A stretch of DNA of 64,000 nucleotides from Bispira polyomma (taxonomy: Eukaryota): the NCBI GenBank assembly GCA_965649765.1, contig OZ287750.1, positions 16,988,001-17,052,000 of the forward strand, read 5' to 3'. A program made the position numbers and the translations under genes. How positions within the stretch are numbered: position 1 is the first letter of the stretch; each line of letters begins with the position of its first letter. The notes below the pieces were generated by a model, which was not told the DNA's origin, did not search any database, and saw only the letters and a list, made by a program, of their open reading frames with translations. Positions 448 through 43,109 of the stretch are shown here, piece after piece.

Positions 448-634
448 GGTCTTCCTCCGCGTGTGAGCTGGACACTTCTAGCCCGACTTCTAGTCGTGTA
501 GAAGGCGTGGTGCCACAGCTTGTCAGGGAACATCACCCGGCAGTGAAACAGGAACTCATCAATTACCTGGGTTACTCCTCCACTCACCAGTTACCTGTAT
601 ACAGGTGCTTGATGAAAGAGGCCAACAAGGCACA
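448..634 (+). CDS. SZT2: SZT2 (KICSTOR scaffold) internal coding exon near the C-terminus
   Basis: aaacAG|...GCA CA|GTAAGT. Reads SSACELDTSSPTSSRVEGVVPQLVREHHPAVKQELINYLGYSSTHQLPVYRCLMKEANKAQ. Its phase-2 end joins exon 10099 in frame. Confidence 0.8.
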
Positions 635-2054: not shown

Positions 2055-2950
2055 GGCAATTACTTCACTGGACAATTTCTAATAAAAGCAGGAAGTATAC
2101 AACCAACAAACTACTTCACTTTGTAATAAGTAGTGCTATCCTGCAAATATGAATAAGGTCACTTCACTGGACAGTTCCTTATGTCCAAATCAGTATTCAA
2201 CCAAACCAAATCAGTATTCAAAAATTACTGATAAGTGTCTTGGCACCAGTAAAAATTCAATCAGCAACCCACTTCACTACAAGATAAGTGACGCTGTACG
2301 TTAAAGTAACCAAAAATTACTTCATTGAACAGCTCCTTAAGAACCAGTAAGCATTCAACTAACTGCCTACTCAACACCATACAAGTAGGACTGCCCTTTA
2401 AATATAAAAAGAATAACTTCACTAGACATTTTTATAAACCAGTAAGAATTCAACCAGCAAACCACTTCACTCCATGTAAATGGTGCTGTATTTCAAGGAT
2501 GAAGAAAGTTACTTTACTGAATAGTTCCCTAAGAAGCAGTAAATATTCAACTAACAGCCTACTTAACATCATGTAAGTAGTGCTGCCCTTTATTTATAAA
2601 AAGAATAACTTTACTGGGCAGTTTTATAAACCACTTCACTCCCTGTAAATGGTGCTATATTTCAAGGATAAAGAAAATTACTTCAACTGGACAATTATTG
2701 ACAACAGTAAGTAAACAACTAACAGCCTACTCAAAACCATGAAAGTTGTGCTGCCGTATAAGAATAAAGAGAATTACTTCACTGAACAGTTACTATATGT
2801 CAGTAAGTATTCAACCAGCAAACCACTTCACTCCATGTAGATGGTGCTGTATTTCAAGGATAAAGAAAGGTACTCCACTGGACATTTGTTATGAACCAGT
2901 ATCAACCGCCTACTCAAAAACATGGTAAGTAGAGCATGCCTCTATCATAA
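2055..2950. repeat. Degenerate ~96-bp tandem repeat inside the DIRS relic
   Basis: TTACTTCACTGGACA-like motif at ~2060, 2159, 2317, 2414, 2509, 2606, 2678, 2774 and 2870. Confidence 0.75.
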
Positions 2951-4640: not shown

Positions 4641-7043
4641 TTAAATAAATTGGTTAATTCCGACTGGATGGATAGCCCCAATTTTCCACATCCACCATTT
4701 CTCTCTCATTTTTCTATGATCAGATTTGGCAGTGTTATATTTTAGGGAGCACCATTCCAAAATAGAGAATTGCATATTTTTTACAGAATGTCCCTTACTA
4801 GTAAAATGTCTAGATACAGGGGTGATTCTGTTATCCTTTGGTTTAGAGACAGATAGTCTGTGTTCATAAATCCTAGCCCTAAATGGGCATCCTGTTTCTC
4901 CAACATAGTACTTATCACACTTGCTACATGTGATTAAGTATACTATGTCACTTAGTTCACAAGTAACATGTTTGGGGAGATCAGTGATAAATATCCTTTC
5001 ATTAGATATTTTTCCTATTACTTCTGTCTTATTTTTGATCAGAGGGCAATAGGTACACTTGCCAAGTCTTGTGCAGTGTTTTGGAAGGATTTGTTTGGTT
5101 TTTAGTCCTTTGGGTGGGTAACTGATTGAAACATTGGTAAGCAGATCCCTGAGGTTTGGTAATCTCCTGAAGCCAATCAGTGGTTCTTTACTGAACGTTT
5201 CGGCACAGTCATTACTGTGCTTAATTATGTTCCAGTTGTTATGGATAAACCCTTTGATGTCAGGGTTATTAGGGTTGAATTTTGTTATCATGACTGGGTT
5301 GGTTGAGGGAACTTTTTGTTTTACCTCAAGTAATTCATCTTGTGTGAATTTAGCAGCTTTAAGCATGTGCTTTTTAAGTGATTTGAGTGGGTACCCTCTG
5401 TTCAGGTAGTGTTCAATCATTTTGATTCCATGATGTATGAAATCTTCGTTTTTGGTGCATATTCTTCTAATTCTTAAGAATTGTGCAAATGGTCCTTTAG
5501 TGTGGCAAGGTCTATGGTGGGCTGAAGTGTGGTGCAGATATAAGTGTGTATCTGTCAGTTTTTCAAACAAAGTAGTGAAGAGTTTTCTGTTGTTATCAAT
5601 CTTGACTGTTGTATCTAAGAAATTGATTGATTCTTTGTTAAGTTCATATGTGAATTTAATTTTTGGGTGAATATTATTGATATATTCAATGAAATTCATT
5701 AGTTCATCTGTGCCATGTGTCCATATCATGAAAATGTCATCTATGAATCTGAGCCATAGTGGTGGTTTGTTCTGCCAGTTTTGTAGTGCCTTGGTTTCAA
5801 ATCTGTCCATGAACAAATTTGCATAGTTGGGGGCTAAGGCAGTCCCCATAGCTGTTCCTCCTATTTGTTGGAAGTAGTCCTCATTAAATGTGAAATTCAT
5901 ACTGTGTAGTACCAGTTTTAGTAATTCCAGAATATAAGGTGTGATTGGGTCTTTAATTTTATCCTGTCTGAGATGTGCTGCCACTGCCACAATACCCTCA
6001 TGATTAGGGATATTGGTGTACAGTGAGGATACATCTAGTGTTACTAAGAGTGCTCCATTAGGGATTTGTCCCATTTGTTTGAGCTTACTAATGAAGTGTT
6101 GAGTATCTCTTATGTAGGATTTAGTTTTAGGGACATATTCTCTAATATGTGCATCAACAAATTTGCTGATGTTACAAGTGGGGTGGCCTATTGAGCTACA
6201 AATTGGTCTACCAGGAACCTGTTTTTTATGTATTTTTGGTAGGAGGTAGAATCTACCTGGTTTAGGTTGTTGGATATTAAGGTAATCAAAATTTTGTTGG
6301 GTGATTAGCTTATGGTTTTTCATTTGTGTTAAAACCTGGCAAATCTTGTCTGAGATTTTCAGTGTTGGGTCTTCTTTTAGTTTAGTATAGAAGTTTTTAT
6401 CACTGAGTTGTCGATATCCTTCCCTTAGGTAGTCAGTGGTGTTCATAACTACGACAGCTGATCCTTTGTCAGCTTTCTTGATAACAATCTCAGGGTTTTT
6501 CCTGAGTTCATTTAGGCCTTGCCATTGCTGTTTGGTAAGGTTAGGGTGTCTATGGTTTTGGTTTGTCTTACTGTTGAGTAAGTCTACTTTGAAAGCTCTT
6601 TTGAATGAGTCCAATGTTTTGTTTGGGGGATTTGGTCTCCAGGATGATTTATTCTTGAAGGTTTTGTGGATATCCTTATAGGGATCATGCACTATTTCAG
6701 GGGCATCTTGTGTGTCCCTTGCGTTTTCATTCATAAAGTCAATGATACTTTGGGTGATATTAATATCAACTGTAGGAGTATCTGAGGAGAAGAATTGTCT
6801 TAGTTCAAGTCTCCTATTGAATTCTTTAAAGTCATCCCAAATCAGGGATTTATTAGGAGTACCAGGTGTAGGACAAAATGTTAGTCCTTTTTCTAGTGCT
6901 GTGACTTGATGTTCAGTAAGGGTTATTTTTGATATGTTAATGACATTATGTCCAATATAACTATCAAAATGGGTCCCTGTGGGGAGGATGCCTGGTGTGG
7001 CATTTATTGCTTCTAGTTCAATCTGTTCTTTTAAGCAGGCCAT
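4641..7043 (-). CDS. Penelope-like reverse transcriptase with C-terminal GIY-YIG endonuclease (800 aa)
   Basis: PLE RT motifs KGLTFCP, ADKG, FYLLPKIHK, GRPI, LDVSSLYTNIP, GTAMG, RFIDD and INFLD. Cys linker CTRLGKCTYC is Neptune-like. The endonuclease has VYLITCSKC..YVGET..R..EH..HF (CCHH) and GIN. Confidence 0.96.
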   Translation of the reverse strand: MACLKEQIELEAINATPGILPTGTHFDSYIGHNVINISKITLTEHQVTALEKGLTFCPTPGTPNKSLIWDDFKEFNRRLELRQFFSSDTPTVDINITQSIIDFMNENARDTQDAPEIVHDPYKDIHKTFKNKSSWRPNPPNKTLDSFKRAFKVDLLNSKTNQNHRHPNLTKQQWQGLNELRKNPEIVIKKADKGSAVVVMNTTDYLREGYRQLSDKNFYTKLKEDPTLKISDKICQVLTQMKNHKLITQQNFDYLNIQQPKPGRFYLLPKIHKKQVPGRPICSSIGHPTCNISKFVDAHIREYVPKTKSYIRDTQHFISKLKQMGQIPNGALLVTLDVSSLYTNIPNHEGIVAVAAHLRQDKIKDPITPYILELLKLVLHSMNFTFNEDYFQQIGGTAMGTALAPNYANLFMDRFETKALQNWQNKPPLWLRFIDDIFMIWTHGTDELMNFIEYINNIHPKIKFTYELNKESINFLDTTVKIDNNRKLFTTLFEKLTDTHLYLHHTSAHHRPCHTKGPFAQFLRIRRICTKNEDFIHHGIKMIEHYLNRGYPLKSLKKHMLKAAKFTQDELLEVKQKVPSTNPVMITKFNPNNPDIKGFIHNNWNIIKHSNDCAETFSKEPLIGFRRLPNLRDLLTNVSISYPPKGLKTKQILPKHCTRLGKCTYCPLIKNKTEVIGKISNERIFITDLPKHVTCELSDIVYLITCSKCDKYYVGETGCPFRARIYEHRLSVSKPKDNRITPVSRHFTSKGHSVKNMQFSILEWCSLKYNTAKSDHRKMREKWWMWKIGAIHPVGINQFI

Positions 7044-7219
7044 ATTAAGATAAGCATAAATATATGAATATATATATAATATTGAGTGAAAAAAACTGCT
7101 GTACTGAGGTAGTTTTTATTATGTGCAATTGCACCTGTTTTAAAAAGTATATAGTGATATGTTATAGAACAGGTGAATAAATAACATTATGGTGCAAATT
7201 CAAAAATGAGGTTGTCTGT

Positions 7220-7903
7220 TTATTTTAACAGTTTCTTCAGCTGCATCATAAATTTTTGGAGGGGTACATCGTTTTGTTTCCTTCCTTTATTGGGTATGAC
7301 CCTCCTTCTTTTGGTTGGGCGGGCTGAATTTCCATTGGGTAATTCATATTGCCTCTTGGCTTTGTTGGTCATAGTTGGTACTAGCTGAGTGGTTCTCTGT
7401 TGTAGGGAATCTTTGATTTCTTTGAGTTGGTCAGAACGTAATATCTTCTCCAATTCTTGGAAGTCAGTGTTAATGAGGCTCTTGATGTGGGAGTATTTTT
7501 CAAAGAGTTCATCTAATAGTGTTTTAGTGAGTATCTATTTACACTCTTCAATGATGGTGGTCCATTTAGCTTGGACATTATCACTTCTGCTCCTATTAAT
7601 ATTGAATTTGAACTCAATACTAGGTGGGTAAGTTTTTTTCAGCAATTTGCTATGCATTTTACTGATTTGACTGGCCAGTGCTATTTTCTTCCTGGTGTTG
7701 TTTTTCAACCTCAGGTAGATGGGTTTGGACTCCTGTGGGTATCCACTCCTTTGTGGGATGGCACTTGGACCTCCACTTGGGCTTATCTCTCTTCTGGGTC
7801 GTTTACCACTCTTGGGGCATTGCTCCTTGGGTTGGCTGGTCAGTTTGTTGCCGGCTGCCATAAGGAGATCCAGAGTTTCATCAGACAATTTGTCTTTAGG
7901 CAT
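7220..7903 (-). pseudogene. PLE upstream ORF1 (227 codons, one in-frame TAG at 7535-7537)
   Basis: ORFs 7535-7903 and 7220-7453 share one frame, joined as ...IIEECK*ILTKTLLDELFEKYSHIKSLINTDFQELEKIL.... The product is basic and helical, with NLS-like GKRPRR and KRRR. Confidence 0.7.
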
Positions 7904-8518
7904 TGGTGTATCAGCAGCTCTAATGTCCTTGATTTCAGACTGGACATATTATACATATTCACCAGGTTAAAAAATACACTTTAACCTAGATATATGCACA
8001 ATTATGTGTACATCTATTTAGTTACCCCAATTGCTGTATTATCATATGGACTGTAAGGGACCCCACAAAAGAAAGGGGACCACTTACCTATATCTTTACA
8101 AGAATAAAATAAAAATATATTTCCATGAATAACAGAACTTTCATTACCTGTGTCTATTATAATGTCTGTAAGGGGTGTAAATAACACCAGGACTCCCACT
8201 TCAATAATAGACTACATTTAAAGGTAACACTTGTAACCAGAAGTGAACATATATTCCAATGATACCCAACCTTCCTAAGTCATTAGGAGGCAATAGGTCT
8301 GAATGCAATGTGAATCAAATATGGAATATCATCCCAAAAATATTTAAAATCATTAAAATCGATTTTAAACAATACAAAAAGTGACCTACCTACTAAATTA
8401 AAATTTCACCAGCACCCACTTTTCAGGTGAAAAACCGGTGCATACACCAGGTGCAATAAACCGGTGCAATTGCACTCCTCAAAAGGTACTTCAGGGGATA
8501 AGTTACCACTAATCTCCA

Positions 8519-10098: not shown

Positions 10099-10255
10099 AA
10101 CTCGACTCCAGAAGATGGTGTCTGTTGCTATGGTGCAGTGTCGTCGTGACATGCTATGGCAGCGTATGCTGATCAACACCAACTTGGGAGAAGAGAGTGC
10201 TCTCAGACGTCGGCATAAGTCAGGCTGGCTGGCCTCTGATAACGCTAATGATCCG
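10099..10255 (+). CDS. SZT2: SZT2 coding exon
   Basis: ctcttAG|A ACT...GAT CCG|GTAAGT. Reads TRLQKMVSVAMVQCRRDMLWQRMLINTNLGEESALRRRHKSGWLASDNANDP. CRRDxLWxR matches the SZT2 C-terminal region as I recall it. Confidence 0.88.
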
Positions 10256-13200
10256 GTAAGTACAGACTTAGTTAGAGGGTGGTTGTCATAAGTCAGTTTG
10301 GCTGGCCTCAGATAACGCTAATGATCCGGTAAGTACAGGATTAGTTAGAGGGTGGGTGTCATAAGTCAGTTTGGCTGGCCTCAGATAACGCTAATGGTCT
10401 GGTGAGTACAGACTTATTTAGAGGGTGGGTGTCATAAGTCAGGCTGGCTGGCCTCTGATAACGCTAATGATCCGATGAGTACAGACTTATTTAGAGGGTG
10501 GGTGTCATAAGTCAGGCTGGCTGGCCTCAGATAACGCTAATGATCCGGTGAGTACTGACTTATTTAGAGGGTGGGTGTCATAAGTCAGGCTGGCTGGCCT
10601 CAGATAACGCTAATGATCCGGTAAGTACAGACTTAGTTAGAGGGTGGTTGTCATAAGTCAGGCTGGCTGGCCTCTGATAACGCTAATGATCATGTAAGTA
10701 CTGAATTAGTTAGAGGGTCGTTGTCATAAGTCAGTTTGGCTGGCCTCAGATAACGCTAATGGTCTGGTGAGTACAGACTTAGTTCTAGGGTGGTTGTCAT
10801 AAGTCAGGCTGGCTGGCCTCTGATAACGCTAATGATCCGGTAAGTACTGACTTAGTTAGAGGGTGGTTGTCATAAGTCAGGCTGGCCTCAGATAACGCTA
10901 ATGATCCGGTAAGTACAGACTTAGTTAGAGGGTGGTTGTCATAAGTCAGGCTGGCTGGCCTCAGATAACGCTAATGATCCCGTAAGTACAGACTTAGTTA
11001 GAGGGTGGTTGTCATAAGTCAGGCTGGCTGGCCTCTGATAACGCTAATGATCATGTAAGTACTGAATTAGTTAGAGGGTCGTTGTCATAAGTCAGTTTGG
11101 CTGGCCTCAGATAACGCTAATGGTCTGGTGAGTACAGACTTAGTTCTAGGGTGGTTGTCATAAGTCAGGCTGGCTGGCCTCTGATAACGCTAATGATCCG
11201 GTAAGTACTGACTTAGTTAGAGGGTGGTTGTCATAAGTCAGGCTGGCCTCTGATAACGCTAATGATCCAGTAAGTACAGACTTAGTTAGAGGGTGGTTGT
11301 CATAAGTCAGTTTGGCTGGCCTCAGATAACGCTAATGATCCGGTAAGTACAGGATTAGTTAGAGGGTGGGTGTCATAAGTCAGTTCCGGTAAGTACAGAC
11401 TTAGTTAGAGGGTGGTTGTCATAAGTCAGTTTGGCTGGCCTCAGATAACGCTAATGGTCTGGTGAGTACAGACTTATTTAGAGGGTGGGTGTCATAAGTC
11501 AGGCTGGCTGGCCTCTGATAACGCTAATGATCCGATGAGTACAGACTTAGTTAGAGAGTGGGTGTCATAAGTCAGGCTGGCTGGCCTCAGATAACGCTAA
11601 TGATCCGGTGAGTACTGACTTAGTTAGAGGGTGGGTGTCATAAGTCAGGCTGGCTGGCCTCAGATAACGCTAATGATCCGGTAAGTACAGACTTAGTTAG
11701 AGGGTGGTTGTCATAAGTCAGGCTGGCTGGCCTCAGATAACGCTAATGATCCAGTAAGTACAGACTTAGTTAGAGGGTGGTTGTCATAAGTCAGGCTGGC
11801 TGGCCTCAGATAACGCTAATGATCCCGTAAGTACAGACTTAGTTAGAGGGTGGTTGTCATAAGTCAGGCTGGCTGGCCTCTGATAACGCTAATGATCATG
11901 TAAGTACTGAATTAGTTAGAGGGTCGTTGTCATAAGTCAGTTTGGCTGGCCTCAGATAACGCTAATGGTCTGGTGAGTACAGACTTAGTTCTAGGGTGGT
12001 TGTCATAAGTCAGGCTGGCTGGCCTCTGATAACGCTAATGATCCGGTAAGTATTGACTTAGTTAGAGGGTGGTTGTCATAAGTCAGGCTGGCCTCTGATA
12101 ACGCTAATGATCCAGTAAGTACAGACTTAGTTAGAGGGTGGTTGTCATAAGTCAGTTTGGCTGGCCTCAGATAACGCTAATGGTCTGGTGAGTACAGACT
12201 TATTTAGAGGGTGGGTGTCATAAGTCAGGCTGGCTGGCCTCTGATAACGCTAATGATCCGATGAGTACAGACTTAGTTAGAGAGTGGGTGTCATAAGTCA
12301 GGCTGGCTGGCCTCAGATAACGCTAATGATCCGGTGAGTACTGACTTAGTTAGAGGGTGGGTGTCATAAGTCAGGCTGGCTGGCCTCAGATAACGCTAAT
12401 GATCCGGTAAGTACAGACTTAGTTAGAGGGTGGTTGTCATAAGTCAGGCTGGCTGGCCTCAGATAACGCTAATGATCCAGTAAGTACAGACTTAGTTAGA
12501 GGGTGGTTGTCATAAGTCAGGCTGGCTGGCCTCAGATAACGCTAATGATCCCGTAAGTACAGACTTAGTTAGAGGGTGGTTGTCATAAGTCAGGCTGGCT
12601 GGCCTCTGATAACGCTAATGATCATGTAAGTACTGAATTAGTTAGAGGGTCGTTGTCATAAGTCAGTTTGGCTGGCCTCAGATAACGCTAATGGTCTGGT
12701 GAGTACAGACTTAGTTCTAGGGTGGTTGTCATAAGTCAGGCTGGCTGGCCTCTGATAACGCTAATGATCCGGTAAGTATTGACTTAGTTAGAGGGTGGTT
12801 GTCATAAGTCAGGCTGGCCTCTGATAACGCTAATGATCCAGTAAGTACAGACTTAGTTAGAGGGTGGTTGTCATAAGTCAGTTTGGCTGGCCTCAGATAA
12901 CGCTAATGATCCGGTAAGTACAGGATTAGTTAGAGGGTGGGTGTCATAAGTCAGTTCCGGTAAGTACAGACTTAGTTAGAGGGTGGTTGTCATAAGTCAG
13001 TTTGGCTGGCCTCAGATAACGCTAATGGTCTGGTGAGTACAGACTTATTTAGAGGGTGGGTGTCATAAGTCAGGCTGGCTGGCCTCTGATAACGCTAATG
13101 ATCCGATGAGTACAGACTTAGTTAGAGAGTGGGCGTCATAAGTCAGGCTGGCTGGCCTCAGATAACGCTAATGATCCGGTGAGTACTGACTTAGTTAGAG

Positions 13201-16200
13201 GGTGGGTGTCATAAGTCAGGCTGGCTGGCCTCGGATAACGCTAATGATCCCGTAAGTACAGACTTAGTTAGAGGGTGGTTGTCATAAGTCAGGCTGGCTG
13301 GCCTCTGATAACGCTAATGATCCAGTAAGTACAGACTTAGTTAGAGGGTGGTTGTCATAAGTCAGGCTGGCTGGCCTCAGATAACGCTAATGATCATGTA
13401 AGTACAGACTTAGTTAGAGGGTGGGTGTCATAAGTGAGGCTGGCTGGCCTCAGATAACGCTAATGATCCCGTAAGTACTGACTTAGTTAGAGGGTGGTTG
13501 TCATAAGTCAGGCTGGCTGGCCTCTGATAATTCTAATGATCATGTAAGTACTGACTTAGTTAGAGGGTGGTTGTCACAAGTCAGGCTGGCTGGCCTCAGA
13601 TAACGCTAATGATCCGGTAAGTACAGACTTAGTTAGAGGGTGGTTGTCATAAGTCAGTTTGGCTGGCATCAGATAACGCTAATGATCCGGTAAGTACAGG
13701 CTTAGTTAGAGGGTGGTTGTCATAAGTCAGTTTGGCTGGCCTCAGATAACGCTAATGATCCCGTAAGTACAGACTTAGTTAGAGGGTGGTTGTCATAAGT
13801 CAGTTTGGCTGGCCTCAGATAACGCTAATGGTCTGGTGAGTACAGACTTATTTAGAGGGTGGATGTCATAGTCAGGCTGGCTGGCCTCTGATAACGCTAA
13901 TGTTCCGGTAAGTACAGACTTAGTTAGAGGGTGGTTGTCATAAGTCAGTTTGGCTGGCCTCAGATAACGCTAATGGTCTGGTGAGTACAGACTTATTTAG
14001 AGGGTGGGTGTCATAAGTCAGGCTGGCTGGCCTCAGATAACGCTAATGATCCGGTGAGTACTGACTTAGTTAGAGGGTGGGTGTCATAATTCAGGCTGGC
14101 TGGCCTCTGGTAACGCTAATGATCCGGTAAGTACAGACTCAGTTAGAGGGTCGTTGTCATAAGTCAGGCTGGCTGGCCTCTGATAACGCTAATGATTCGG
14201 TAAGTACAGACTTAGTTCCAGGGTGGTTGTCATAAGTCAGGCTGGCTGGCCTCTGATAACGCTAATGATCCAGTAAGTACAGACTTAGTTAGAGGGTGGT
14301 TGTCATAAGTCAGGCTGGCTGGCCTCAGATAACTCTAATGATCCAGTGAGTACAGACTTATTTAGAGGGTGGGTGTCATAAGTCAGGCTGGCTGGCCTCT
14401 GATAACGCTAATGATCCGGTAAGTACAGACTTAGTTCCAGGGTGGTTGTCATAAGTCAGGCTGGCTGGCCTCTGATAACGCTAATGATCCAGTAAGTACA
14501 GACTTAGTTAGAGGGTGGTTGTCATAAGTCAGGCTGGCTGGCCTCAGATAACTCTAATGATCCAGTGAGTACAGACTTATTTAGAGGGTGGGTGTCATAA
14601 GTCAGGCTGGCTGGCCTCAGATAACGCTAATGATCCGGTAAGTACAGACTTAGTTAGAGGGTGGTTGTCATAAGTCAGGCTGGCTGGCCTCTGATAACGC
14701 TAATGATCATGTAAGTACTGAATTAGTTAGAGGGTCGTTGTCATAAGTCAGTTTGGCTGGCCTCAGATAACGCTAATGGTCTGGTGAGTACAGACTTAGT
14801 TCTAGGGTGGTTGTCATAAGTCAGGCTGGCTGGCCTCTGATAACGCTAATGATCCGGTAAGTACTGACTTAGTTAGAGGGTGGTTGTCATAAGTCAGGCT
14901 GGCCTCAGATAACGCTAATGATCCGGTAAGTACAGACTTAGTTAGAGGGTGGTTGTCATAAGTCAGGCTGGCTGACCTCAGATAACTCTAATGATCCCGT
15001 AAGTACAGACTTAGTTAGAGGGTGGTTGTCATAAGTCAGGCTGGCTGGCTTCAGATAACGCTAATGATCCGGTAAGTACAGACTTAGTTAGAGGGTGGTT
15101 GTCATAAGTCAGGCTGGCTGGCCTCAGATAACGCTAATGATCATGTAAGTACAGACTTAGAAAGAGGGTGGTTGTCATAAGTCAGGCTGGCTGGCCTCAG
15201 ATAACGCTAATGATCATGTAAGTACAGACTTAGTTAGAGGGTCGTTGTCATAAGTCAGTTTGGCTGGCCTCTGATAACGCTAATGATCATGTAAGTACAG
15301 ACTTAGTTAGAGGGTGTTTGTCATAAGTCAGGCTGGCTGGCCTCTGATAACGCTAATGATCCGGTAAGTACAGACCTATTTAGAGGGTGGGTGTCATAAG
15401 TCAGGCTGGCTGGCCTCAGATAACGCTAATGATCCGGTAAGTACAGACTTAGTTAGAGGGTGGTTGTCATAAGTCAGGCTGGCTGGCCTCTGATAACGCT
15501 AATGATCCGGTAAGTACAGACTTAGTTAGAGGGTGGGTGTCATAAGTCAGTTTGGCTGGCCTCAGATAACGCTAATGATCCGGTAAGTACAGGATTAGTT
15601 AGAGGGTGGGTGTCATAAGTCAGTTCCGGTAAGTACAGACTTAGTTAGAGGGTGGTTGTGATAAGTCAGGCTGGCCTCTGATAACGCTAATGATCCGGTA
15701 AGTACAGACTTAGTTAGAGGGTGGGTGTCATAAGTCAGTTTGGCTGGCCTCAGATAACGCTAATGATCCGGTAAGTACAGGATTAGTTAGAGGGTGGGTG
15801 TCATAAGTCAGTTCCGGTAAGTACAGACTTAGTTAGAGGGTGGTTGTCATAAGTCAGTTTGGCTGGCCTCAGATAACGCTAATGGTCTGGTGAGTACAGA
15901 CTTATTTAGAGGGTGGGTGTCATAAGTCAGGCTGGCTGGCCTCAGATAACGCTAATGGTCTGGTGAGTACAGACTTAGTTAGAGGGTGGGTGTCATAAGT
16001 CAGGCTGGCTGGCCTCAGATAACGCTAATGGTCTGGTGAGTACAGACTTAGTTAGAGGGTGGTTGTCATAAGTCAGTTTGGCTGGCATCAGATAACGCTA
16101 ATGATCCGGTAAGTACAGGCTTAGTTAGAGGGTGGTTGTCATAAGTCAGTTTGGCTGGCCTCAGATAACGCTAATGATCCCGTAAGTACAGACTTAGTTA

Positions 16201-19200
16201 GAGGGTGGTTGTCATAAGTCAGTTTGGCTGGCCTCAGATAACGCTAATGGTCTGGTGAGTACAGACTTATTTAGAGGGTGGATGTCATAGTCAGGCTGGC
16301 TGGCCTCTGATAACGCTAATGTTCCGGTAAGTACAGACTTAGTTAGAGGGTGGTTGTCATAAGTCAGTTTGGCTGGCCTCAGATAACGCTAATGGTCTGG
16401 TGAGTACAGACTTATTTAGAGGGTGGGTGTCATAAGTCAGGCTGGCTGGCCTCAGATAACGCTAATGATCCGGTGAGTACTGACTTAGTTAGAGGGTGGG
16501 TGTCATAATTCAGGCTGGCTGGCCTCTGGTAACGCTAATGATCCGGTAAGTACAGACTCAGTTAGAGGGTCGTTGTCATAAGTCAGGCTGGCTGGCCTCT
16601 GATAACGCTAATGATTCGGTAAGTACAGACTTAGTTCCAGGGTGGTTGTCATAAGTCAGGCTGGCTGGCCTCTGATAACGCTAATGATCCAGTAAGTACA
16701 GACTTAGTTAGAGGGTGGTTGTCATAAGTCAGGCTGGCTGGCCTCAGATAACTCTAATGATCCAGTGAGTACAGACTTATTTAGAGGGTGGGTGTCATAA
16801 GTCAGGCTGGCTGGCCTCTGATAACGCTAATGATCCGGTAAGTACAGACTTAGTTCCAGGGTGGTTGTCATAAGTCAGGCTGGCTGGCCTCTGATAACGC
16901 TAATGATCCAGTAAGTACAGACTTAGTTAGAGGGTGGTTGTCATAAGTCAGGCTGGCTGGCCTCAGATAACTCTAATGATCCAGTGAGTACAGACTTATT
17001 TAGAGGGTGGGTGTCATAAGTCAGGCTGGCTGGCCTCAGATAACGCTAATGATCCGGTAAGTACAGACTTAGTTAGAGGGTGGTTGTCATAAGTCAGGCT
17101 GGCTGGCCTCTGATAACGCTAATGATCATGTAAGTACTGAATTAGTTAGAGGGTCGTTGTCATAAGTCAGTTTGGCTGGCCTCAGATAACGCTAATGGTC
17201 TGGTGAGTACAGACTTAGTTCTAGGGTGGTTGTCATAAGTCAGGCTGGCTGGCCTCTGATAACGCTAATGATCCGGTAAGTACTGACTTAGTTAGAGGGT
17301 GGTTGTCATAAGTCAGGCTGGCCTCAGATAACGCTAATGATCCGGTAAGTACAGACTTAGTTAGAGGGTGGTTGTCATAAGTCAGGCTGGCTGACCTCAG
17401 ATAACTCTAATGATCCCGTAAGTACAGACTTAGTTAGAGGGTGGTTGTCATAAGTCAGGCTGGCTGGCTTCAGATAACGCTAATGATCCGGTAAGTACAG
17501 ACTTAGTTAGAGGGTGGTTGTCATAAGTCAGGCTGGCTGGCCTCAGATAACGCTAATGATCATGTAAGTACAGACTTAGAAAGAGGGTGGTTGTCATAAG
17601 TCAGGCTGGCTGGCCTCAGATAACGCTAATGATCATGTAAGTACAGACTTAGTTAGAGGGTCGTTGTCATAAGTCAGTTTGGCTGGCCTCTGATAACGCT
17701 AATGATCATGTAAGTACAGACTTAGTTAGAGGGTGTTTGTCATAAGTCAGGCTGGCTGGCCTCTGATAACGCTAATGATCCGGTAAGTACAGACCTATTT
17801 AGAGGGTGGGTGTCATAAGTCAGGCTGGCTGGCCTCAGATAACGCTAATGATCCGGTAAGTACAGACTTAGTTAGAGGGTGGTTGTCATAAGTCAGGCTG
17901 GCTGGCCTCTGATAACGCTAATGATCCGGTAAGTACAGACTTAGTTAGAGGGTGGGTGTCATAAGTCAGTTTGGCTGGCCTCAGATAACGCTAATGATCC
18001 GGTAAGTACAGGATTAGTTAGAGGGTGGGTGTCATAAGTCAGTTCCGGTAAGTACAGACTTAGTTAGAGGGTGGTTGTGATAAGTCAGGCTGGCCTCTGA
18101 TAACGCTAATGATCCGGTAAGTACAGACTTAGTTAGAGGGTGGGTGTCATAAGTCAGTTTGGCTGGCCTCAGATAACGCTAATGATCCGGTAAGTACAGG
18201 ATTAGTTAGAGGGTGGGTGTCATAAGTCAGTTCCGGTAAGTACAGACTTAGTTAGAGGGTGGTTGTCATAAGTCAGTTTGGCTGGCCTCAGATAACGCTA
18301 ATGGTCTGGTGAGTACAGACTTATTTAGAGGGTGGGTGTCATAAGTCAGGCTGGCTGGCCTCAGATAACGCTAATGGTCTGGTGAGTACAGACTTAGTTA
18401 GAGGGTGGGTGTCATAAGTCAGGCTGGCTGGCCTCAGATAACGCTAATGGTCTGGTGAGTACAGACTTAGTTAGAGGGTGGTTGTCATAAGTCAGGCTGG
18501 CTGGCTTTAGATAACGCTAATGATCTGGTAAGTACAGACTTAGTTAGAGGGTGGTTGTCATAAGTCAGGCTGGCTGGCCTCAGATAACACTAATGATCCA
18601 GTAAGTACAGACTTAGTTAGAGGGTGGTTGTCATAAGTCAGGCTGGCTGGCCTCTGATAACGCTAATGATCCAGTAAGTACAGACTTAGTTAGAGGGTGG
18701 TTGTCATAAGTCAGGCTGGCTGGCCTCTGATAACGCTAATGATCCAGTAAGTACAGACTTAGTTAGAGGGTGGTTGTCATAAATCAGGCTGGCTGGCTTT
18801 AGATAACGCTAATGATCCGGTAAGTACAGACTTAGTTAGAGGGTCGTTGTCATAAGTCAGTTTGGCTGGCCTCAGATAACGCTAATGGTCTGGTGAGTAC
18901 AGACTTAGTTAGAGGGTGGGTGTCATAAGTCAGGCTGGCTGGCCTCAGATAACGCTAATGGTCTGGTGAGTACAGACTTAGTTAGAGGGTGGTTGTCATA
19001 AGTCAGGCTGGCTGGCTTTAGATAACGCTAATGATCTGGTAAGTACAGACTTAGTTAGAGGGTGGTTGTCATAAGTCAGGCTGGCTGACCTCTAATAACG
19101 CTAATGATCCGGTAAGTACAGACTTAGTTCCAGGGTGGTTGTCATAAGTCAGTTTGGCTGGCCTCAGATAACGCTAATGATCATGTAAGTACAGACTTAG

Positions 19201-20148
19201 TTAGAGGGTGGGTGTCATAAGTGAGGCTGGCTGGCCTCAGATAACGCTAATGATCCCGTAAGTACTGACTTAGTTAGAGGGTGGTTGTCATAAGTCAGGC
19301 TGGCTGGCCTCTGATAATTCTAATGATCATGTAAGTACTGACTTAGTTAGAGGGTGGTTGTCACAAGTCAGGCTGGTTGGCCTCAGATAACGCTAATGAT
19401 CCGGTAAGTACAGGCTTAGTTAGAGGGTGGTTGTCATAAGTCAGTTTGGCTGGCCTCAGATAACGCTAATGATCCCGTAAGTACAGACTTAGTTAGAGGG
19501 TGGGTGTCATAAGTCAGTTTGGCTGGCCTCAGATAACGCTAATGGTCTGGTGAGTACAGACTTATTTAGAGGGTGGATGTCATAGTCAGGCTGGCTTGCC
19601 TCTGATAACGCTAATGTTCCGGTAAGTACAGACTTAGTTAGAGGGTGGTTGTCATAAGTCAGTTTGGCTGGCCTCAGATAACGCTAATGGTCTGGTGAGT
19701 ACAGACTTATTTAGAGGGTGGGTGTCATAAGTCAGGCTGGCTGGCCTCAGATAACGCTAATGATCCGGTGAGTACTGACTTAGTTAGAGGGTGGGTGTCA
19801 TAATTCAGGCTGGCTGGCCTCTGATAACGCTAATGATCCGGTAAGTACAGACTCAGTTAGAGGGTCGTTGTCATAAGTCAGGCTGGCTGGCCTCTGATAA
19901 CGCTAATGATCCGGTAAGTACAGACTTAGTTCCAGGGTGGTTGTCATAAGTCAGGCTGGCTGGCCTCAGATAACGCTAATGATCCGGTAAGTACAGACTT
20001 AGTTAGAGGGTGGGTGTCATAAGTCAGGCTGGCTGGCCTCAGATAACGCTAATGATCATGTAAGTACAGACTTAGTTAGAGGGTGGTTGTCATAAGTCAG
20101 GCTGGCTGGCCTCAGATAACGCTATTGATCATGTAAGTACAGACTTAG
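10214..20148 (+). repeat. 73-bp intronic tandem array (~135 units) containing the SZT2 exon end and 5' splice site
   Basis: Unit GTCATAAGTCAGGCTGGCTGGCCTCWGATAACGCTAATGATCCG|GTAAGTACAGACTTAGTTAGAGGGTGGTT. The first copy overlaps the coding exon. Confidence 0.98.
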
Positions 20149-20360
20149 GGGAATCATAGTTAGTGGTGCTTGTAAACTTAAGGCTTTTAAGCCGCTGATA
20201 GGGGGCTGTTTGGTAAGCCTTTGTCAGAACATTGGACATTTATAATATTGTGACACAAAGTACTGTTATGTAAATATTAAGAATGGTACTTCAACACCTT
20301 TGGCCATTTTATGAAAATTCCATTTCTGAACAAAGTGCTCCAGGTAGAGTTTTTTTTAGA

Positions 20361-20492
20361 GTTTCTGTACTTGTGGCTTATTTCAGTCACTTGTTTGGAT
20401 GTATTTGGAGAACAGTTTCTGCACTTGTGGCTTATTTCAGTCACTTGTTTGGATGTACTTAGATAACAGTCTGTACTTCTGGCTTATTTCAG
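20361..20492 (+). repeat. ~54-bp tandem repeat of the SZT2 3' splice site (2.5 copies)
   Basis: TCTGYACTTSTGGCTTATTTCAG ends at 20386, 20440 and 20492. Confidence 0.85.
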
Positions 20493-20647
20493 TTGCTCCA
20501 AAGACTGAGTTGTGGTGAGTTTGAAGAGCTCCTACAGATCGTATGTAAGGAGCCGCTACATACTTTTGACAAGAGCCTGATGCCGCTACATAACATGCCT
20601 CGTTCCTGGTACCAAGCACTATTTAAAGTACTCATCACTAAATATGG
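20493..20647 (+). CDS. SZT2: SZT2 coding exon
   Basis: ttatttcAG|...TAT GG|GTGAGT. Reads LLQRLSCGEFEELLQIVCKEPLHTFDKSLMPLHNMPRSWYQALFKVLITKYG, resembling SZT2 'RLxxxELEELL...SWYQSLIKVL'. Phases are consistent. Confidence 0.9.
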
Positions 20648-21060: not shown

Positions 21061-21148
21061 AGATTACCACAGATCGTTCCACAACTGGGACAGCTCTATA
21101 CAACACCTGGTCATCCCTAACCCCAAAGCTCTGGATATGTTCATGTTG
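21061..21148 (+). CDS. SZT2: SZT2 penultimate coding exon
   Basis: tatttcAG|A GAT TAC...ATG TTG|GTAGGT. Reads DYHRSFHNWDSSIQHLVIPNPKALDMFML, in frame with its neighbours. Confidence 0.88.
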
Positions 21149-22037: not shown

Positions 22038-22243
22038 AGTTTGTTTGACAGAGATTATACTGTATCTGTAACTCTACTGTTTTACAATTTACATTCAGGC
22101 CACCATAGATACCATTGGTAACAGGGCGGACTAATACTGACTATTTGGATAAGAGAAGTTTGTTTTATACAGATTATACTGTAACTCTACTGTTACACTG
22201 TCCTTTTTAGGCCACCATAGATACCAGCGGTAACAGGACAGAC
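22038..22243 (+). repeat. ~115-bp tandem duplication spanning the SZT2 last acceptor
   Basis: AG|GCCACCATAGATACCA..GGTAACAGG occurs at 22099 and 22211, each preceded by agattatactgta..aactctactgtt. Confidence 0.85.
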
Positions 22244-22354
22244 TTGTGTGCAGTATTCCGTAAACAGAGTTGTCAAGACGACGCAGTCACCCAGTCTCAT
22301 GTGGAGGCCTTTGTCAACACCTGCTGTTACCATATATGGAGTTGTGTTTTGTGA
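22211..22354 (+). CDS. SZT2: SZT2 terminal coding exon
   Basis: ctttttAG|GCC...TTG TGA. Reads ATIDTSGNRTDLCAVFRKQSCQDDAVTQSHVEAFVNTCCYHIWSCVL*, resembling the SZT2 end 'HLESVINTACFTLW..LL'. Confidence 0.9.
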   Translation, partial: ATIDTSGNRTDLCAVFRKQSCQDDAVTQSHVEAFVNTCCYHIWSCVL

Positions 22355-36281: not shown

Positions 36282-36409
36282 TTAATAAGGCTTGTTGGCA
36301 TCCTTGGGCCGCTTCAGCTGGACTTTGAGCCTCTTCATGCCGATCTGGAATCCATTCATGGCTTGGATAGCTGCTTGGGCACTGGTGGGGTTGTCAAAGC
36401 TCACAAAGC
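36282..36409 (-). CDS. CELF4: CELF last coding exon (RRM3 end)
   Basis: Reads [42 protein letters not shown]. The exon continues to a donor AAG|GTAAAT at 36258. Confidence 0.97.
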
Positions 36410-36454
36410 CTGCAATTACAAGTTACAATTTAGTTTGAGTTTGACGTCCCTGTC

Positions 36455-36645
36455 AACAGCTTAGCTCATATCATGATGGCCAGATTGAATGAGTGGAAGA
36501 AACCAAGCACAGTAAACCAATGACCTATAGTAAGTACCCGACAAACTTTTCCACATGAAGGAATGAACAGGATTCAAACCCACATTGGTGAGAGGCCAGT
36601 GATTGTGTAGTAGGCCACAAAGTAACTGTGTACAACTGGGCAGCA
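36455..36645 (-). mobile_element. SINE copy of the same family as 990-1215
   Basis: aaaccaatgacctatagtaagtacccgacaaacttttccacatgaaggaa, plus a B-box-like GGTTTGAATCC on the minus strand. Confidence 0.65.
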
Positions 36646-37111
36646 TAATGGATAGAGTTGACTTTGGACTTAAAATCACTTTCAAACCGTCTTTGTGTCA
36701 TAGCACCACGGGCAGTCCACTGGTAGTGGAAATTAGACCAAAGTAATAGATCAAGGTTTTGTTTAAAGCAAGTCTACTGCCAACTTTTCCATAGAGACAA
36801 TGGGCATCACAATAGGCAACAGAATGGACTCAACTTATCAGTTACTGATCAGCTTAACATGCATAATTAAATAAGTGACCAGCACCTTATAAAAGCCAAA
36901 AGGTTATGTCAATATGTGTTTGTAAGTATAAAACACTACATAAGCTTACTTTAGCTTAATACATTGTAAGTTACCTTCATAAAAACATAATATAGGATTT
37001 TGCAACTACAAAAGACTACATCCACATATAGACATTGTATGTTAGCCTTGACATGTATTTTAAGGAGTCTAACTATTGAACACCCCACTAAAGAGCGGCT
37101 GCCAGACTTAC

Positions 37112-37255
37112 CAAAGCACTTGCTCTGGTTGGTAGCACGGTCCACGTACACCTTTGCGCTGATGACTGTTCCGAATGGCATGAACATCTGGGCTAGCTCT
37201 GCATCTCCAAACTCCTGGGGCAGATGGTAGATGAAGAGGTTGCAGCCCTCGGGAC
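37112..37255 (-). CDS. CELF4: CELF RRM3 exon
   Basis: Reads [48 protein letters not shown] between canonical AG and GTAAGT. Confidence 0.97.
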
Positions 37256-39408
37256 CTACAGGGATAACTGAACATGGGACCCAGAGACTTTAGTAGAGGC
37301 ACCAAACAACATCAAGGGGCGGGTGGGGGTGTAACCAACACGTGTGTGTGAGTGAGTGGAGGCTGGGCGCTCCAAGTCAAGGGAACACAGACGTAAAAAT
37401 GCACGTGTGAATATTACTACTTCAAGAGAACTGTGTCCTGTGTCAGACTCAAGTAAAAAAAAAAACAACTAGTAGTTAATTTGAACATGTAAATAGCTTT
37501 CACAAATTTCACAAACAAAAAAAGTTGCCAGAAAAACCTCCCACATATGTCACCCTAATGGGAAAAATATTTTGTTCTAAGTGATTGTGAATATACTCAT
37601 TTTCAATACATTTTAAATAGGGGTCCCCAGAGACCATACACTAGTATCAGTTTTAGAGCAATAATTAAAAACCCTGTTACAAACAATTAAAAACCTTGAT
37701 TAAAAAGAGTATTGACCCAGTTCTCTGCACTAGACATAGATTAACTGCTACCAAACACTAGATGAAGCCCACACACTATGCTACGTTACTATAGCTAAAT
37801 ATCCAATGGCTTAGACATGTGGGTTACATTTAGTGGTTGGTGAGACACAACAGCATGCTTAAGTCTGCTACACGTACACAATGACACAAGATTACACTTC
37901 ATCTCATCACATCTAATACTTCTCTCTTTTACTTTGTTTACTTCACCAACACAAAACAAAAAATCTTCCATTGCGTCAAAAATGTTTTAAAAAAAAAATG
38001 TGTTCAAAAAATATTTGACTGTAAGCTATAAAACATCTTGGTCAAGTGTTGTACTATCTACTTTTGCATCTCTTTGTCACTAAATTACAGAACTCGACAA
38101 AAATACTAAAAATAAACAACTTCACAAAACAGATAACATTAAAAGAGTTTAATCCGTTAAAAAAAAAAAAAATCACAGCCAATAACACTTGCAGAGTTGA
38201 CAACAGAAATGGGATGATACATTAAGAATGTGTTAAAGACCTCTCACTCTAGTACAAAAACAGTCAACACCAAAAAAACAGCCGCATTTTCTTTTTTCTA
38301 AATTGACTATATAAATTTGAAAACAGTCTCAATTCTAATGATAGTGGTGGGTCATTTTAACGGTGATTCAAGTCCATGACATCATAGATCTTTCGTCCTT
38401 GGTTGTCTGTGTTTTTTTTCTTAATTGAAATGGCCAGTTTTTGTTCTATATGTTAATAAGTAAGCAGAACCACGTACTTTTACCAATTGACAACAGCGAG
38501 TACAAAATACACAAGACACACCAATTATATAAAGAAAACACGTCACACCGAACCAGAGGATGAACAGTGAACACAATGTATCACTGAAGTCCTGGATTAC
38601 ACCTGTCTGAAACCTAGCCTCCGTAACCCGTGGTCTGTGTGTACGTCATTCTTACTCCTTCACAGTTTTAGTGTGTCCTTGTAGTAAAATTTTACAAACA
38701 GGCGTAGACTGAGTTTTCTGTCCCTTTGCATTAGCGATGGAAACAGAGTATTCCGTCTATGACGGATGCACTTTCTTGCACACAAGACTTAACGAGGACT
38801 CCCACACATGTAAGAATAACGTACACAGTTAAAGGGATGGCCTAGCACTGGTTACGGAGACCGGTTTCAGAAAGGTGTTTTTTTGTTGTTGTTTTTGTAA
38901 GGCCGTTGAGAAGTCTACAACAGAGTCAGCTGACTTCTATAGACGGGCAACACACCTCTTGTGTGTACTTGTGTGTAATGGTACACACTAAAACAAGGTG
39001 TTTTTGGGGGGTCCCCATTATAAGCTACCGACAATTAGTCACCATGGTAACTACAAGATGAGCTGTCACTCTGCGGGTGTTGTCGCCTGCTTAGTTTACT
39101 AATCAAGCCTTCAACTCTTGTGCATAGAAACATGTCAACTGGCTCAAACTTTGCCCCAACTGTAAAAAATCAAAATGCCTCAGAAATCTTCTATCAGTTT
39201 TCTTTATAAAAATATTGCAGGGTTGACTGATAGGTGTATTATTATTGAATCAAATTGGTAAGGAATAGAAAGTGAAACTTGCTGACTATTTACACAAACA
39301 TGTAAATCGTTAATGCAATTAATCTTTATTAATGGATGCAAGGGCAGAGTCCCCCATGTTTCTATACACCTGGTTGAGGCTAGTAGTATTATCTGCACAC
39401 TTATATAC

Positions 39409-39492
39409 CTTCTTTAGTCTGCTGGGAGGTTGGAGCGGGTGGGGCTGCTAGGACCTGTTGGAACTGACCGGCGTATGCAGCAGGATATGTGG
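39409..39492 (-). CDS. CELF4: CELF exon preceding RRM3
   Basis: ttttacAG|CC ACA TAT...GAA G|GTATAT. Reads ATYPAAYAGQFQQVLAAPPAPTSQQTKE, phase 1-1. Confidence 0.88.
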
Positions 39493-40872
39493 CTGTAAAA
39501 ATACAAACAAGACACCCACATAAGGACAATAACAACTAGCACCTGTATATATGGGAGACTGAATAAATTAGCAAAAAAATCACGTTAATGTGCAAGAATA
39601 TGTGCCAATGGTTGTGGTACTCTACCAGTATTTAGCTAGAAATGATATAATGTGTAGTAAACATCACTGAAATCTTTTTATTAGTACAGATTTATACAAA
39701 GTATATAGCCTCAGGTTTAATATATTACATTAGAAGCTATTTAATCTAGTTAGATATTTAAACTATATATATGGGATAGAATGGAATTTAGTACATGACT
39801 AACAGTTATTTACACACAGTAACTAAATGTAGAAAGTGCAATTTCGAGCATTTTGTACAGACGCACATGTATATTGCATGTATATTTACAAAAAGTAAAA
39901 ACAAAAAAGTACAGTTACTATTTTTTGGAGGACAACGTAAATTACTTTTAAAATCTGGTCAGTATATCAATAAACGTTAAGCAATAGAGGGACACACATA
40001 TATGTATACATACATATATAGAGAGAGATCCAACAAACGAGCAAAATTAAACAAGAAAACTAAAACAATTTCCCAAATCCTTGCTCTATGACAAACACGT
40101 GGCTCAAAACACAGCATTTCATAAACGAATCCAATCACTCTGAATTTCCAGATTTTTTTTTTTTTGTGTAGATAAGACTCTCAGGGTGGTGGTGATGGTT
40201 GAGGGGGGGGTTATACATAAAGCGTTGTAGTAGAGAGAGTGGGCTGAAGTAGATGACAACAGTGGCGTATACAATACGTACACCTGACAAAATGTGTCGC
40301 TACATTAAACACCCAGGACACACTCTCTTGGCATGCAGTCCCTGTGTTATGATTAACAAGAGATCATGCTTGTTTGAAGAATAAACACAAAAGCAAACAC
40401 ATACACAGTTACTACACGTAAAAACTTTTCAAAAAGGCAAGACTAAACTAAACAGTTGTCTTGCCCCATTTTTTTTAATTGCGATATTCTTTTTTTCTGT
40501 TGTTAAATTTGAAAAATAAGTTTGAACACTGTACATAGAAGGAACAATACTTATTATCATATTTAGGGGAAAAACAGATTCAATATACATCTTAAAACAG
40601 CTAAAACGTAAACAAAATCAACCACCAACTAGTAAACAAAAAAGGTGTACACAGATACATACTTACATGTATCGACAAACTATTGCTGGTTTCTTTTTAG
40701 TTTAATTATTTCATGTGCAAGTGTTTGCTTTTAGATTACAGAGAAGGCCAACAATTTATGCTTTATGAAGAGAGAAAAAAACACGAAATTACTAAAAAGA
40801 CATTGCTATGGAAATGAGTGGGTCTGAGCCAGGTTGTTGCTAAGAGACAAAGAATTGAGACAGCACCTATAC

Positions 40873-40935
40873 CCGCGTATTGCTGCACCCCAGTGTAGGC
40901 TTGCTGTAACGGATCACCATTAGCAACGGCCGTCA
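40873..40935 (-). CDS. CELF4: CELF divergent-domain exon
   Basis: ttttcAG|TG ACG...GCG G|GTATAG. Reads VTAVANGDPLQQAYTGVQQYA, containing the conserved DPLQQAYxGxQQYA motif. Confidence 0.9.
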
Positions 40936-43109
40936 CTGAAAACAAACAAGTTACCATAGTAACACATACTGATGCAACACTGAAACACACACACATGTAC
41001 ACACACAGAAATAAATGATTTTTTTTGGTGTCAATTACTAATATTGAAAAGTTAAATTTTTGGGAAGATTAGTAAATTCTGATTGGATACATAGTGCAAT
41101 AAGAAAAAAAAAAAAACAATTAAATATCCATCATGTTTTGAAACATTCTTTTAATGGATAAGAGAAGATCAACACAATGACATGAGAAACACAAAATTCA
41201 AATGGGGCGACAACAATTTATTGGTGTCTTTGTTAATAAACAGCTCTGATTAAAAGTTATTAACAAAGTAATCAGTAAATTTTAGAGTAATGAAATTTAC
41301 CCACAAATACTAAAGACAGATCAAGATTGTGCATGTAGAAGGCCATTTAGATTCGTACTCTACTTTTAAATCTTGACAAATACTAGGATTTGAGGCAGTT
41401 TATCTACCGCCCCAATATAGATTGTAAGTCCAAAAGTGGAGAGTAAACATTTATCATTTAGTAAGATTCTGTTGCAGTGTTTTTTTTTAATAACTGCAGT
41501 AGATATTTGATTGTCATTTTGTTATATTAAATCAATTATATTTTAATCACAGAACTATATGTAACGCCAAATTGGTTTAAGCTGTGTTAACTGTGAAATG
41601 GAATTCAGGACACCATCATAATGAAATTATAATATTGCTTTATGTATATTTATAAAGTAAATTTTAAATATGATTTCTGCAAATTTTCATTATTGCAACA
41701 AATATTTTTTTTGTATCCAGTTTCCAATTCGCAATTATCAGAGTGAGTAACCATGGCAACACTTAAATAAACACCATTAGTATGAAACAAACATATTCCC
41801 CCCGAGTGCAGTTTTCTTGTGTCACCACCAATCAATTTATATTATTTATTGCACACAATATCTGTGCATAGGAGGTTTAGTAATAATAATAAGCCCAAAA
41901 TCACTGCCTACAAGATACATCTAGTATAACACATCCATACTAAGAAAAGACATCCAATGCTCTCACATACACACATAGATATGTACACTTGAAAACCGTA
42001 TTTGTGCTAACATGTTTCTCAAGGTCAAAACAAAAAACATTTTGTTTTCAAAATGTTATCACCCCAGCCTGGTTTTTTTTCTAAAATGTACCCCAGGTCA
42101 AGTTTATATCAACTTTACACAATATTCCGTTCAAATTTTTTTGATTCTTTAAAGTTTAAAAGTGCTTTTTACTAAAAAATCTTTGGGGGAGTTAAAATTC
42201 ACCCACATACCACACTAACTAGACATTCAGTAAAATCATATGAAATTTCCTATTGCTAATAAACACAGAAAAGGATGTTAAGACTTCCAATATATGCTCT
42301 ACTTTTTTGGCACAAGCAGATTATACTGCAATTTGTTAACACTTTTTCATTTACGTAACTTTAAAGACACAAGAATATTTTTACTACAACTAAAGAGTAG
42401 CTTTATTTACAGCATATATTGATCCCCAACATCATATAATCAACATATACTCTTGTGGAAATAAATGTATGTGAAATTTTAAAATGCGAAACTGATCATA
42501 AATGTTTCCCAATGCCCTTGTTAAATTTTTAATATTTTACTTTTTCTTAAGGATGTTTCACACTAGTATCTATTATCAATGCAAAAACCTTGACTGACGT
42601 CACTCTAATCAACAACATTTAGGGCATGTAAAACATTTATAGGTCGAGAAATCTAAATTCTTTGTACATATAATTAACATACAGTAGTACACCAACTAAG
42701 TAATGCAAGAAGCTTGGAAAATCCATACATGAAAGTTGTAAAAACTTCAGAAATTTTTTCATGGCTACAATTTAACAAACTATTGTCCAATGAGATCCTG
42801 CTTTGTGAGTTCATATTTTGTGTTAAATCGTTTAAAAGAAATGGCTTACAGCTACAACATGGAAAAATGGCGAATTTTTTTTTTGTTAATTTTACACCAC
42901 AGTGATGGGGGCTGGCTTCTTGCACTACCTTTTAAGTCCTCAAACCCAAATCTGTGACACACACATCCATGTATATAGATATTTAATAGACAGATGTATG
43001 AAAAAGTAATAAAACACAGATGAATTATATATATAACACACTGAGTGAAGGTGGGTGGGGAGGGGAAAGGGGAGGTCAGTCTCCATGCAGAGAATGAGGT
43101 GCTACATAC

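What the first reader, a model, noticed from the sequence alone, without database searches (positions are those of the whole stretch)
10214..20148. A 10-kb intron built from ~135 copies of the exon end plus its own 5' splice site
Each 73-bp unit holds the last ~42 coding nt of the SZT2 exon and a GTAAGT/GTGAGT donor, many in the same CCG|GTAAGT context as the real one. Using any downstream donor adds VSTDLVRGWLS* and so a premature stop. The spliceosome must pick the first of more than 100 equivalent donors. Each unit also has TTAG|, defining potential 53-nt pseudo-exons. This is a natural test of exon definition and a possible U1 snRNP sink or length-polymorphic modulator of SZT2.
Basis: partly seen in the sequence, partly recalled or inferred. 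Interest (0 to 1): 0.7.

Follow-up and report, generated by a model that had tools for sequence, protein, structure and literature searches.

The report
Giant splice-donor minisatellite in SZT2 intron
A 73-base piece covering the end of one exon of an invertebrate's SZT2 gene and its splice signal stands 139 times in a row over 10 kb of the next intron; it is a large example of a repeat type already known from lancelet and human genes, and the cell likely uses only the first signal.

Summary
The array is real: window 10214-20148, 139 donor positions (135 with GT, 54 identical to the true CCG|GTAAGT), found nowhere else in the genome, and backed by short-read contigs of two samples. The gene is SZT2. 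The unit is 42 nt of exon end plus 31 nt derived from the old intron start, and any later donor adds a stop codon. This is a known kind: lancelet 'mirages' and the human F7, CBS, LMNB2 and ABCA7 repeats, the last reaching 10.7 kb. In F7 only the first donor is used. The TTAG pseudo-exons have poor acceptors, and copied GT/AG sites are neither kept nor purged, so neutral growth is most likely. The architecture is common here: 26 of 213 junctions in three genes carry copies. Arrays span junctions more often than random placement predicts (16 of 58 and 6 of 16), although a position-level test was not significant in the two control genes. The scan found the same kind before on other DNA. Splicing itself is untested.

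The parts
448..634 (+). SZT2 exon upstream of exon A (start 448 by one homolog, 544 by the other; donor agreed)
   Evidence: spliced alignment
10099..10255 (+). SZT2 exon A (157 nt), fourth from last; its last 42 nt are the exon half of the repeat unit
   Evidence: both homologs give these ends
10253..10261 (+). Authentic donor CCG|GTAAGT, score 9.9, above 80% of 51 SZT2 donors
10214..20148 (+). 73-bp tandem array, 139 donor positions, 134 extra GT donors, locus-specific
10289..10291 (+). In-frame TAA in the first intronic unit; every downstream donor would include it
13620..18495 (+). Higher-order duplication: 2457 nt identical at a period of 2419 nt (33 units)
20133..20173 (+). Last donor and likely ancestral intron start; the unit's 31 intronic nt align to it with one 11-nt deletion, one 1-nt insertion and 2 substitutions
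20149..20492 (+). 344-nt unique intron tail that carries the acceptor
20360..20493 (+). Second small array: acceptor TTATTTCAG stands three times (AG ends 20386, 20440, 20492); only the last keeps the frame open
   Evidence: same sequence in contigs of both samples
20493..20647 (+). SZT2 exon B; matches human SZT2 residues 3298-3345 of 3432
21061..21148 (+). SZT2 exon C
22211..22354 (+). SZT2 last coding exon with stop; its acceptor and first bases are duplicated 112 nt upstream (AG ends 22098, leads to a stop)

Best explanation
This is a locus-specific minisatellite made of the end of an SZT2 exon and its splice donor, likely born from one tandem duplication across the junction, likely amplified neutrally, and predicted to be spliced at the first donor only. 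Shown: unit composition, single locus, nested higher-order blocks up to 2.4 kb, a stop codon behind the first donor. Inferred: a piece of about 83 nt (42 exon, about 41 intron) was duplicated, lost 11 nt, and grew by slippage or unequal exchange. Inferred from the F7 experiments and exon definition: the spliceosome pairs the acceptor at 10098 with the nearest downstream donor (157-nt exon); the 134 later donors stay silent because no good acceptor lies in front of them; rare use of a later donor would give a stop with further junctions downstream and would be removed by nonsense-mediated decay or lose the last 128 codons.
For: Unit = exon end + intron start. One locus. Two homologs both join 10255 to 20493 in frame. 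True donor strong. Array AGs are purine-flanked (median 6-8 pyrimidines of 16 against 10 for real acceptors) and typically have another AG within 20 nt, which only 6 of 46 real acceptors do. No selection seen on copied GT/AG: 9 changes at 36 positions of 18 arrays, 9.2 expected. The variable -2/-1 position is a CpG and its two commonest kinds of change include both deamination products. Same architecture at 26 of 213 junctions in three genes. Precedent: F7, CBS, IFI6 (6-16), LMNB2, PDGF (PMC1557585); lancelet mirages do not disturb splicing (PMC3087553).
Against: Donor use was not observed here. 53 later donors equal the true one and 2 score higher. In CBS and 6-16 the next one or two donors are used too, and in ABCA7 one unit is retained in some transcripts. 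The AG at unit position 41 scores moderately (mean 4.0, best 7.3; 105 of 1013 array AGs reach the 10th percentile of real acceptors), so 32-nt pseudo-exons are possible. The excess of arrays at junctions is not predicted by plain neutrality without a mutation or retention bias.
Confidence: 0.8

Rival explanations
1. The array is a length-variable dimmer of SZT2: more donor copies divert a share of transcripts to a premature stop and decay, as proposed for the human ABCA7 repeat.
For: 134 extra GT donors, all behind an in-frame stop. ABCA7 precedent. Two unit variants stand at 48-54 per assembled copy in X3 against flanks of 61-91, a weak hint of a shorter or different allele in the second sample.
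Against: F7 experiments show no competition by later donors. Only the nearest copies leak in the human cases, so copies far down would add little. No sign of selection on copied GT. The two runs of one sample differ about as much as the samples do.
Confidence: 0.1
2. The extra donors help rather than compete: U1 bound downstream strengthens definition of exon A or shields the intron from early cleavage, and junction arrays are kept for that.
For: Arrays span junctions more often than random placement predicts (16 of 58 against 1.8-2.6; 6 of 16 against 1.8). That U1 bound downstream can enhance an exon is recalled, not from a call.
Against: The true donor is already strong. GT in copies is not conserved above background. 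Acceptors are copied about as readily as donors (11 against 15). The array holds no AATAAA or ATTAAA to shield.
Confidence: 0.05
3. The array is much shorter in life and was inflated by the assembler, in particular at the perfect 2.4-kb block.
For: 2457 nt are identical at a period of 2419. In X2 the collapsed counts (4, 5, 9 copies) would give about 16 per copy, equal to the left flank depth of 16.1.
Against: Three unit variants with 6, 7 and 13 assembled copies give 23.5, 22.9 and 22.4 per copy in X1 (flanks 22 and 16.6) and 10.7-11.2 in X2 (flanks 16.1 and 9.65), nearer to the full than to the collapsed array. Even without the block about 106 units remain. X1 and X2 may be the assembly's own sample, and the second haplotype is unknown.
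Confidence: 0.04
4. The unit is a dispersed satellite that landed here by chance.
For: The region holds real dispersed satellites of 142 and 169 bp.
Against: All genome-wide matches lie in this array and the unit aligns to the exon end and intron start.
Confidence: 0.01

Closest known systems
Amphioxus 'mirage' minisatellites (Adh3, globins BflGb6 and BflGb9, troponin C, PGBD5). Passages read in PMC3087553 and PMC3902484; the original Adh3 paper PMC117041 is not held
   Same: Tandem copies of an exon-intron boundary, either end; many but not all copies keep GT or AG; marine invertebrate genes; homogenised clusters
   Different: Reported globin and PGBD5 clusters have 2-7 units; this one has 139 over 10 kb with nested blocks; the host is likely an annelid or other spiralian; no RT-PCR here
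Human F7 intron 7 37-bp VNTR, with CBS, 6-16 (IFI6), LMNB2 and PDGF listed beside it. PMC1557585: abstract, Introduction and Discussion read
   Same: First unit spans the exon end; identical donors follow; first donor used (next one or two also in CBS and 6-16)
   Different: 5-26 donors there, 135 here; 42 nt of exon per unit here against 4 in F7
Human ABCA7 intron 18 25-bp VNTR. Passages read in PMC5954066 and PMC13747324
   Same: Starts at the donor; up to 10,678 bp (about 427 units); use of the next unit's donor gives a premature stop
   Different: Length polymorphism and an effect on splicing are shown there and untested here; the unit there begins at the GT rather than inside the exon

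Membership tests
Mirage / junction-spanning minisatellite | Repeat unit spans an exon-intron boundary of the host gene | tested here: met
   42 nt exon end + 31 nt from intron start; exon fixed by two homologs
Mirage / junction-spanning minisatellite | Head-to-tail array confined to that locus | tested here: met
Mirage / junction-spanning minisatellite | Many but not all copies keep the splice signal | tested here: met
   135 of 139 GT
Mirage / junction-spanning minisatellite | Turnover by homogenisation and block duplication | tested here: met
   59 unit types in recurring runs; identical blocks at periods 726 and 2419
Mirage / junction-spanning minisatellite | Length varies between alleles or cells | tested here: inconclusive
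   contig depths of two samples are too noisy
Mirage / junction-spanning minisatellite | Normal mRNA made from the authentic site | not testable with these tools
   only homology and reading frame speak to it
Array of cassette pseudo-exons | Usable acceptor with pyrimidine tract and AG-free zone in each unit | tested here: not met
   TTAG at +20 scores -1.0; +41 moderate but purine-flanked with an upstream AG
Recursive splicing (ratchet) sites; definition recalled | AG directly followed by a donor GT | tested here: not met
   0 of 139 donor contexts end in AG
Dispersed satellite DNA | Copies at other loci | tested here: not met

The most novel reading that the evidence does not exclude
In this genome minisatellites arise or persist preferentially on splice junctions (about one junction in eight in three genes; junction-spanning arrays 3 to 9 times above random placement), so it carries thousands of natural splice-site duplications that all obey a nearest-site rule, and at the extreme end, this 139-donor array, allele length sets how much SZT2 message is lost to decay. 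The junction bias alone I put near 0.5; bias plus a length effect on SZT2 at the probability given.
Probability: 0.1. Interest if true: 0.6.

Novelty: new member of a known kind. Interest (0 to 1): 0.25.

Why it matters
As it stands it is a large specimen of a known repeat class and a handy substrate: 134 strong decoy donors behind one real donor would make a stringent test of first-donor choice outside mammals. The side result may matter more: if junction-spanning arrays are truly over-represented, they point to a mutation or retention bias at exon borders that three full-text searches (also 73) did not find measured genome-wide. Such arrays can also mislead gene prediction. SZT2 belongs to KICSTOR (molecule name), a regulator of mTORC1 nutrient sensing (abstract listing), so a length effect on its dose would be of interest, but nothing here shows one.

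Tried and rejected
No RNA holder listed for the exon-array border, so splicing was not examined. A DNA search of the own genome with two units was not scored; pattern searches answered the question. Exon A alone found no solved structure and no homolog by word search; exon B did. Pfam gave nothing over cut-off for 5 of 5 SZT2 exon pieces. Folding of 10200-10500 is unremarkable, z -0.78, so masking of donors by structure is not supported. A gap in X3 cover at 10180-10203 proves nothing. Selection for or against copied splice dinucleotides: none seen. Enrichment against the raw intron background: none (SZT2 17.5% against 19.3%, p 0.71; CHC plus RPB1 7.8% against 12.1%, p 0.95). PMC10078293 passages did not bear on this class. 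PMC117041 not held. Supplements were not consulted; additional files 4-7 of PMC3087553 may give more detail on mirage units.

Full report
Observation. Tandem Repeats Finder reports a 73-bp array at 10214-20148. Parsing on the donor motif gives 139 donor positions, the first being the real exon end at 10255|10256; 135 keep GT, 4 read ATGAGT, 54 have CCG|GTAAGT; there are 59 unit types. The consensus unit matches the last 42 nt of the exon, and its other 31 nt align to the 41 nt that follow the last donor with an 11-nt deletion, a 1-nt insertion and 2 substitutions, so the whole unit derives from this junction. Exact and two-mismatch pattern searches of the 1.035-Gb genome give 61 and 130 matches, the same numbers as inside the array.

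Is it real? Three short-read contig sets from two samples of one study hold the border. Summed depth over the unit is 160-240 times the left flank in all three; the tool warns that this is no copy number. A finer check uses single contigs: unit variants with 6, 7 and 13 assembled copies give 23.5, 22.9 and 22.4 per copy in X1 (flanks 22 and 16.6) and 10.7-11.2 in X2 (flanks 16.1 and 9.65). A contig bridges the last unit into unique DNA in X1 and X2; the X3 contig starts only at the array's edge. The perfect 2457-nt block is favoured but not proven, and X1/X2 may be the assembly's own sample.

The gene. Exon 20493-20647 matches human SZT2 residues 3298-3345 (E 0.003-0.009) and 24 library proteins, the best named SZT2-like from Tubulanus. 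With 200 kb of upstream DNA a spliced alignment of two homologs gives 66 and 46 exons; both join 10099-10255 to 20493-20647, then 21061-21148 and 22211 onward. The 66-exon model holds one stop and is not exact everywhere. The intron is 10,237 nt, third longest of 65. The modelled clathrin heavy chain is closest to a polychaete (89.1%) and a brachiopod (88.4%) among 11 named proteins compared, so the host is likely an annelid or other spiralian.

Splice signals. Against matrices from 51 donors and 46 acceptors of this gene (those of 65 each that both homologs agree on, or that lie in well-scoring N-terminal exons), the true donor scores 9.9, above 80% of real donors; most copies are in the normal range. 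Reading past the first donor meets TAA at 10289-10291, upstream of further junctions, so any later donor would give a truncated, probably degraded message lacking the last 128 codons (inference). The TTAG at unit position 20 scores -1.0 on average (best 2.7; 10th percentile of real acceptors 4.1). The best AG is position 41 (mean 4.0; 105 of 1013 array AGs reach 4.1), which would give 32-nt pseudo-exons, but it has 6 pyrimidines of 16 against 10 in real acceptors and an upstream AG. No donor is preceded by AG, so there are no ratchet sites. Across 18 junction arrays in SZT2 the copied GT/AG positions show 9 changes where 9.2 are expected from copied exon bases: no sign of purging or keeping.

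Mechanism. Shown: composition, single locus, block structure, stop. Inferred: one duplication of about 83 nt across the junction, then amplification. Inferred from precedent: use of the first donor. In human F7, 50 constructs showed that later identical donors are functional but silent and that the most upstream one is chosen; the same paper lists CBS and 6-16 (next one or two donors also used) and LMNB2 and PDGF (first only) (PMC1557585; abstract, Introduction, Discussion). Lancelet repeats of exon-intron boundaries are named mirages and do not disturb splicing by RT-PCR (passages of PMC3087553 and PMC3902484). The ABCA7 repeat starts at a donor, reaches 10,678 bp and leaks one unit into some transcripts (passages of PMC5954066 and PMC13747324). 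The name mirage reached me through a search listing and an earlier scan note; eight further notes on other genomes describe the same kind, those listed spanning at most 43 copies where stated. These notes are leads, not support.

It is not alone. The acceptor of this very intron stands three times and that of the last exon twice; only the last copy keeps the frame. In SZT2, 11 of 51 donors and 6 of 46 acceptors have a local copy at up to 6 mismatches in 30. As an independent check I modelled two single-copy genes on other contigs: clathrin heavy chain 3 of 62 junctions, RPB1 6 of 54. Total 26 of 213. Whether this is an excess depends on the null. Against the raw share of intron positions with a local copy there is none (p 0.71 and 0.95). 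Against arrays collapsed to one unit SZT2 shows an excess (17.5% against 4.0%, p 3e-7) but the two control genes do not reach significance (7.8% against 4.8%, p 0.11). Counting arrays of period 20 or more, after dropping 12 of 70 and 3 of 19 with distant copies, 16 of 58 span a junction in SZT2 (1.8-2.6 expected; 0 of 200,000 simulations) and 6 of 16 in the control genes (1.8 expected, p 0.004). Biases that could produce this without any function: the junction copy cannot be deleted, its exon half is conserved and so stays recognisable longer, and deep intron DNA turns over faster (the collapsed rate falls with distance from exons). Searches for a genome-wide measure of this in print returned nothing relevant, within an open-access library only.

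Verdict. Observation confirmed; interpretation partly supported. A new and unusually large member of a known kind, most likely neutral (0.8). Interest 0.25, for its size and for the junction bias seen in three genes, which needs a genome-wide test.

Noticed in passing
window 4641-7115, minus strand: An 824-codon open frame with reverse transcriptase (over Pfam cut-off) and GIY-YIG (just under) domains, a Penelope-like element (label recalled) antisense inside the preceding SZT2 intron; shorter upstream frames at 7220-7948.
   Followed up: partly
window 36289-47491, minus strand: Exons of a CELF/Bruno-like RNA-binding gene (name recalled; RRM_1 hit) converging on the SZT2 3' end.
   Followed up: partly
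G000:C3, about 63.2-65.6 kb upstream of the window (L012): A 52-bp acceptor array of SZT2 in two blocks 1.5 kb apart, 17 copies all keeping AG.
   Followed up: partly
G000:C3, about 50.5-51.1 kb and 153.4-155.0 kb upstream of the window: Donor arrays of SZT2 with about 20 copies of 31 bp and 11 copies of 141 bp.
   Followed up: partly
G000:C10:44699032-44718551 (L043-L045): RPB1 carries six junctions with local copies, among them a 60-bp donor array and a 52-bp acceptor array.
   Followed up: partly
G000:C2:73012926-73013051: A second clathrin-linker match apart from the full gene on C8; paralog or fragment not examined.
   Followed up: no
window 2245-2884: Old 96-bp tandem array in the intron before exon A, not on a modelled junction.
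   Followed up: no
L006-L025: Dispersed satellites of 142 and 169 bp recur through the SZT2 introns; tandem repeats cover 15% of the 264 kb examined.
   Followed up: partly
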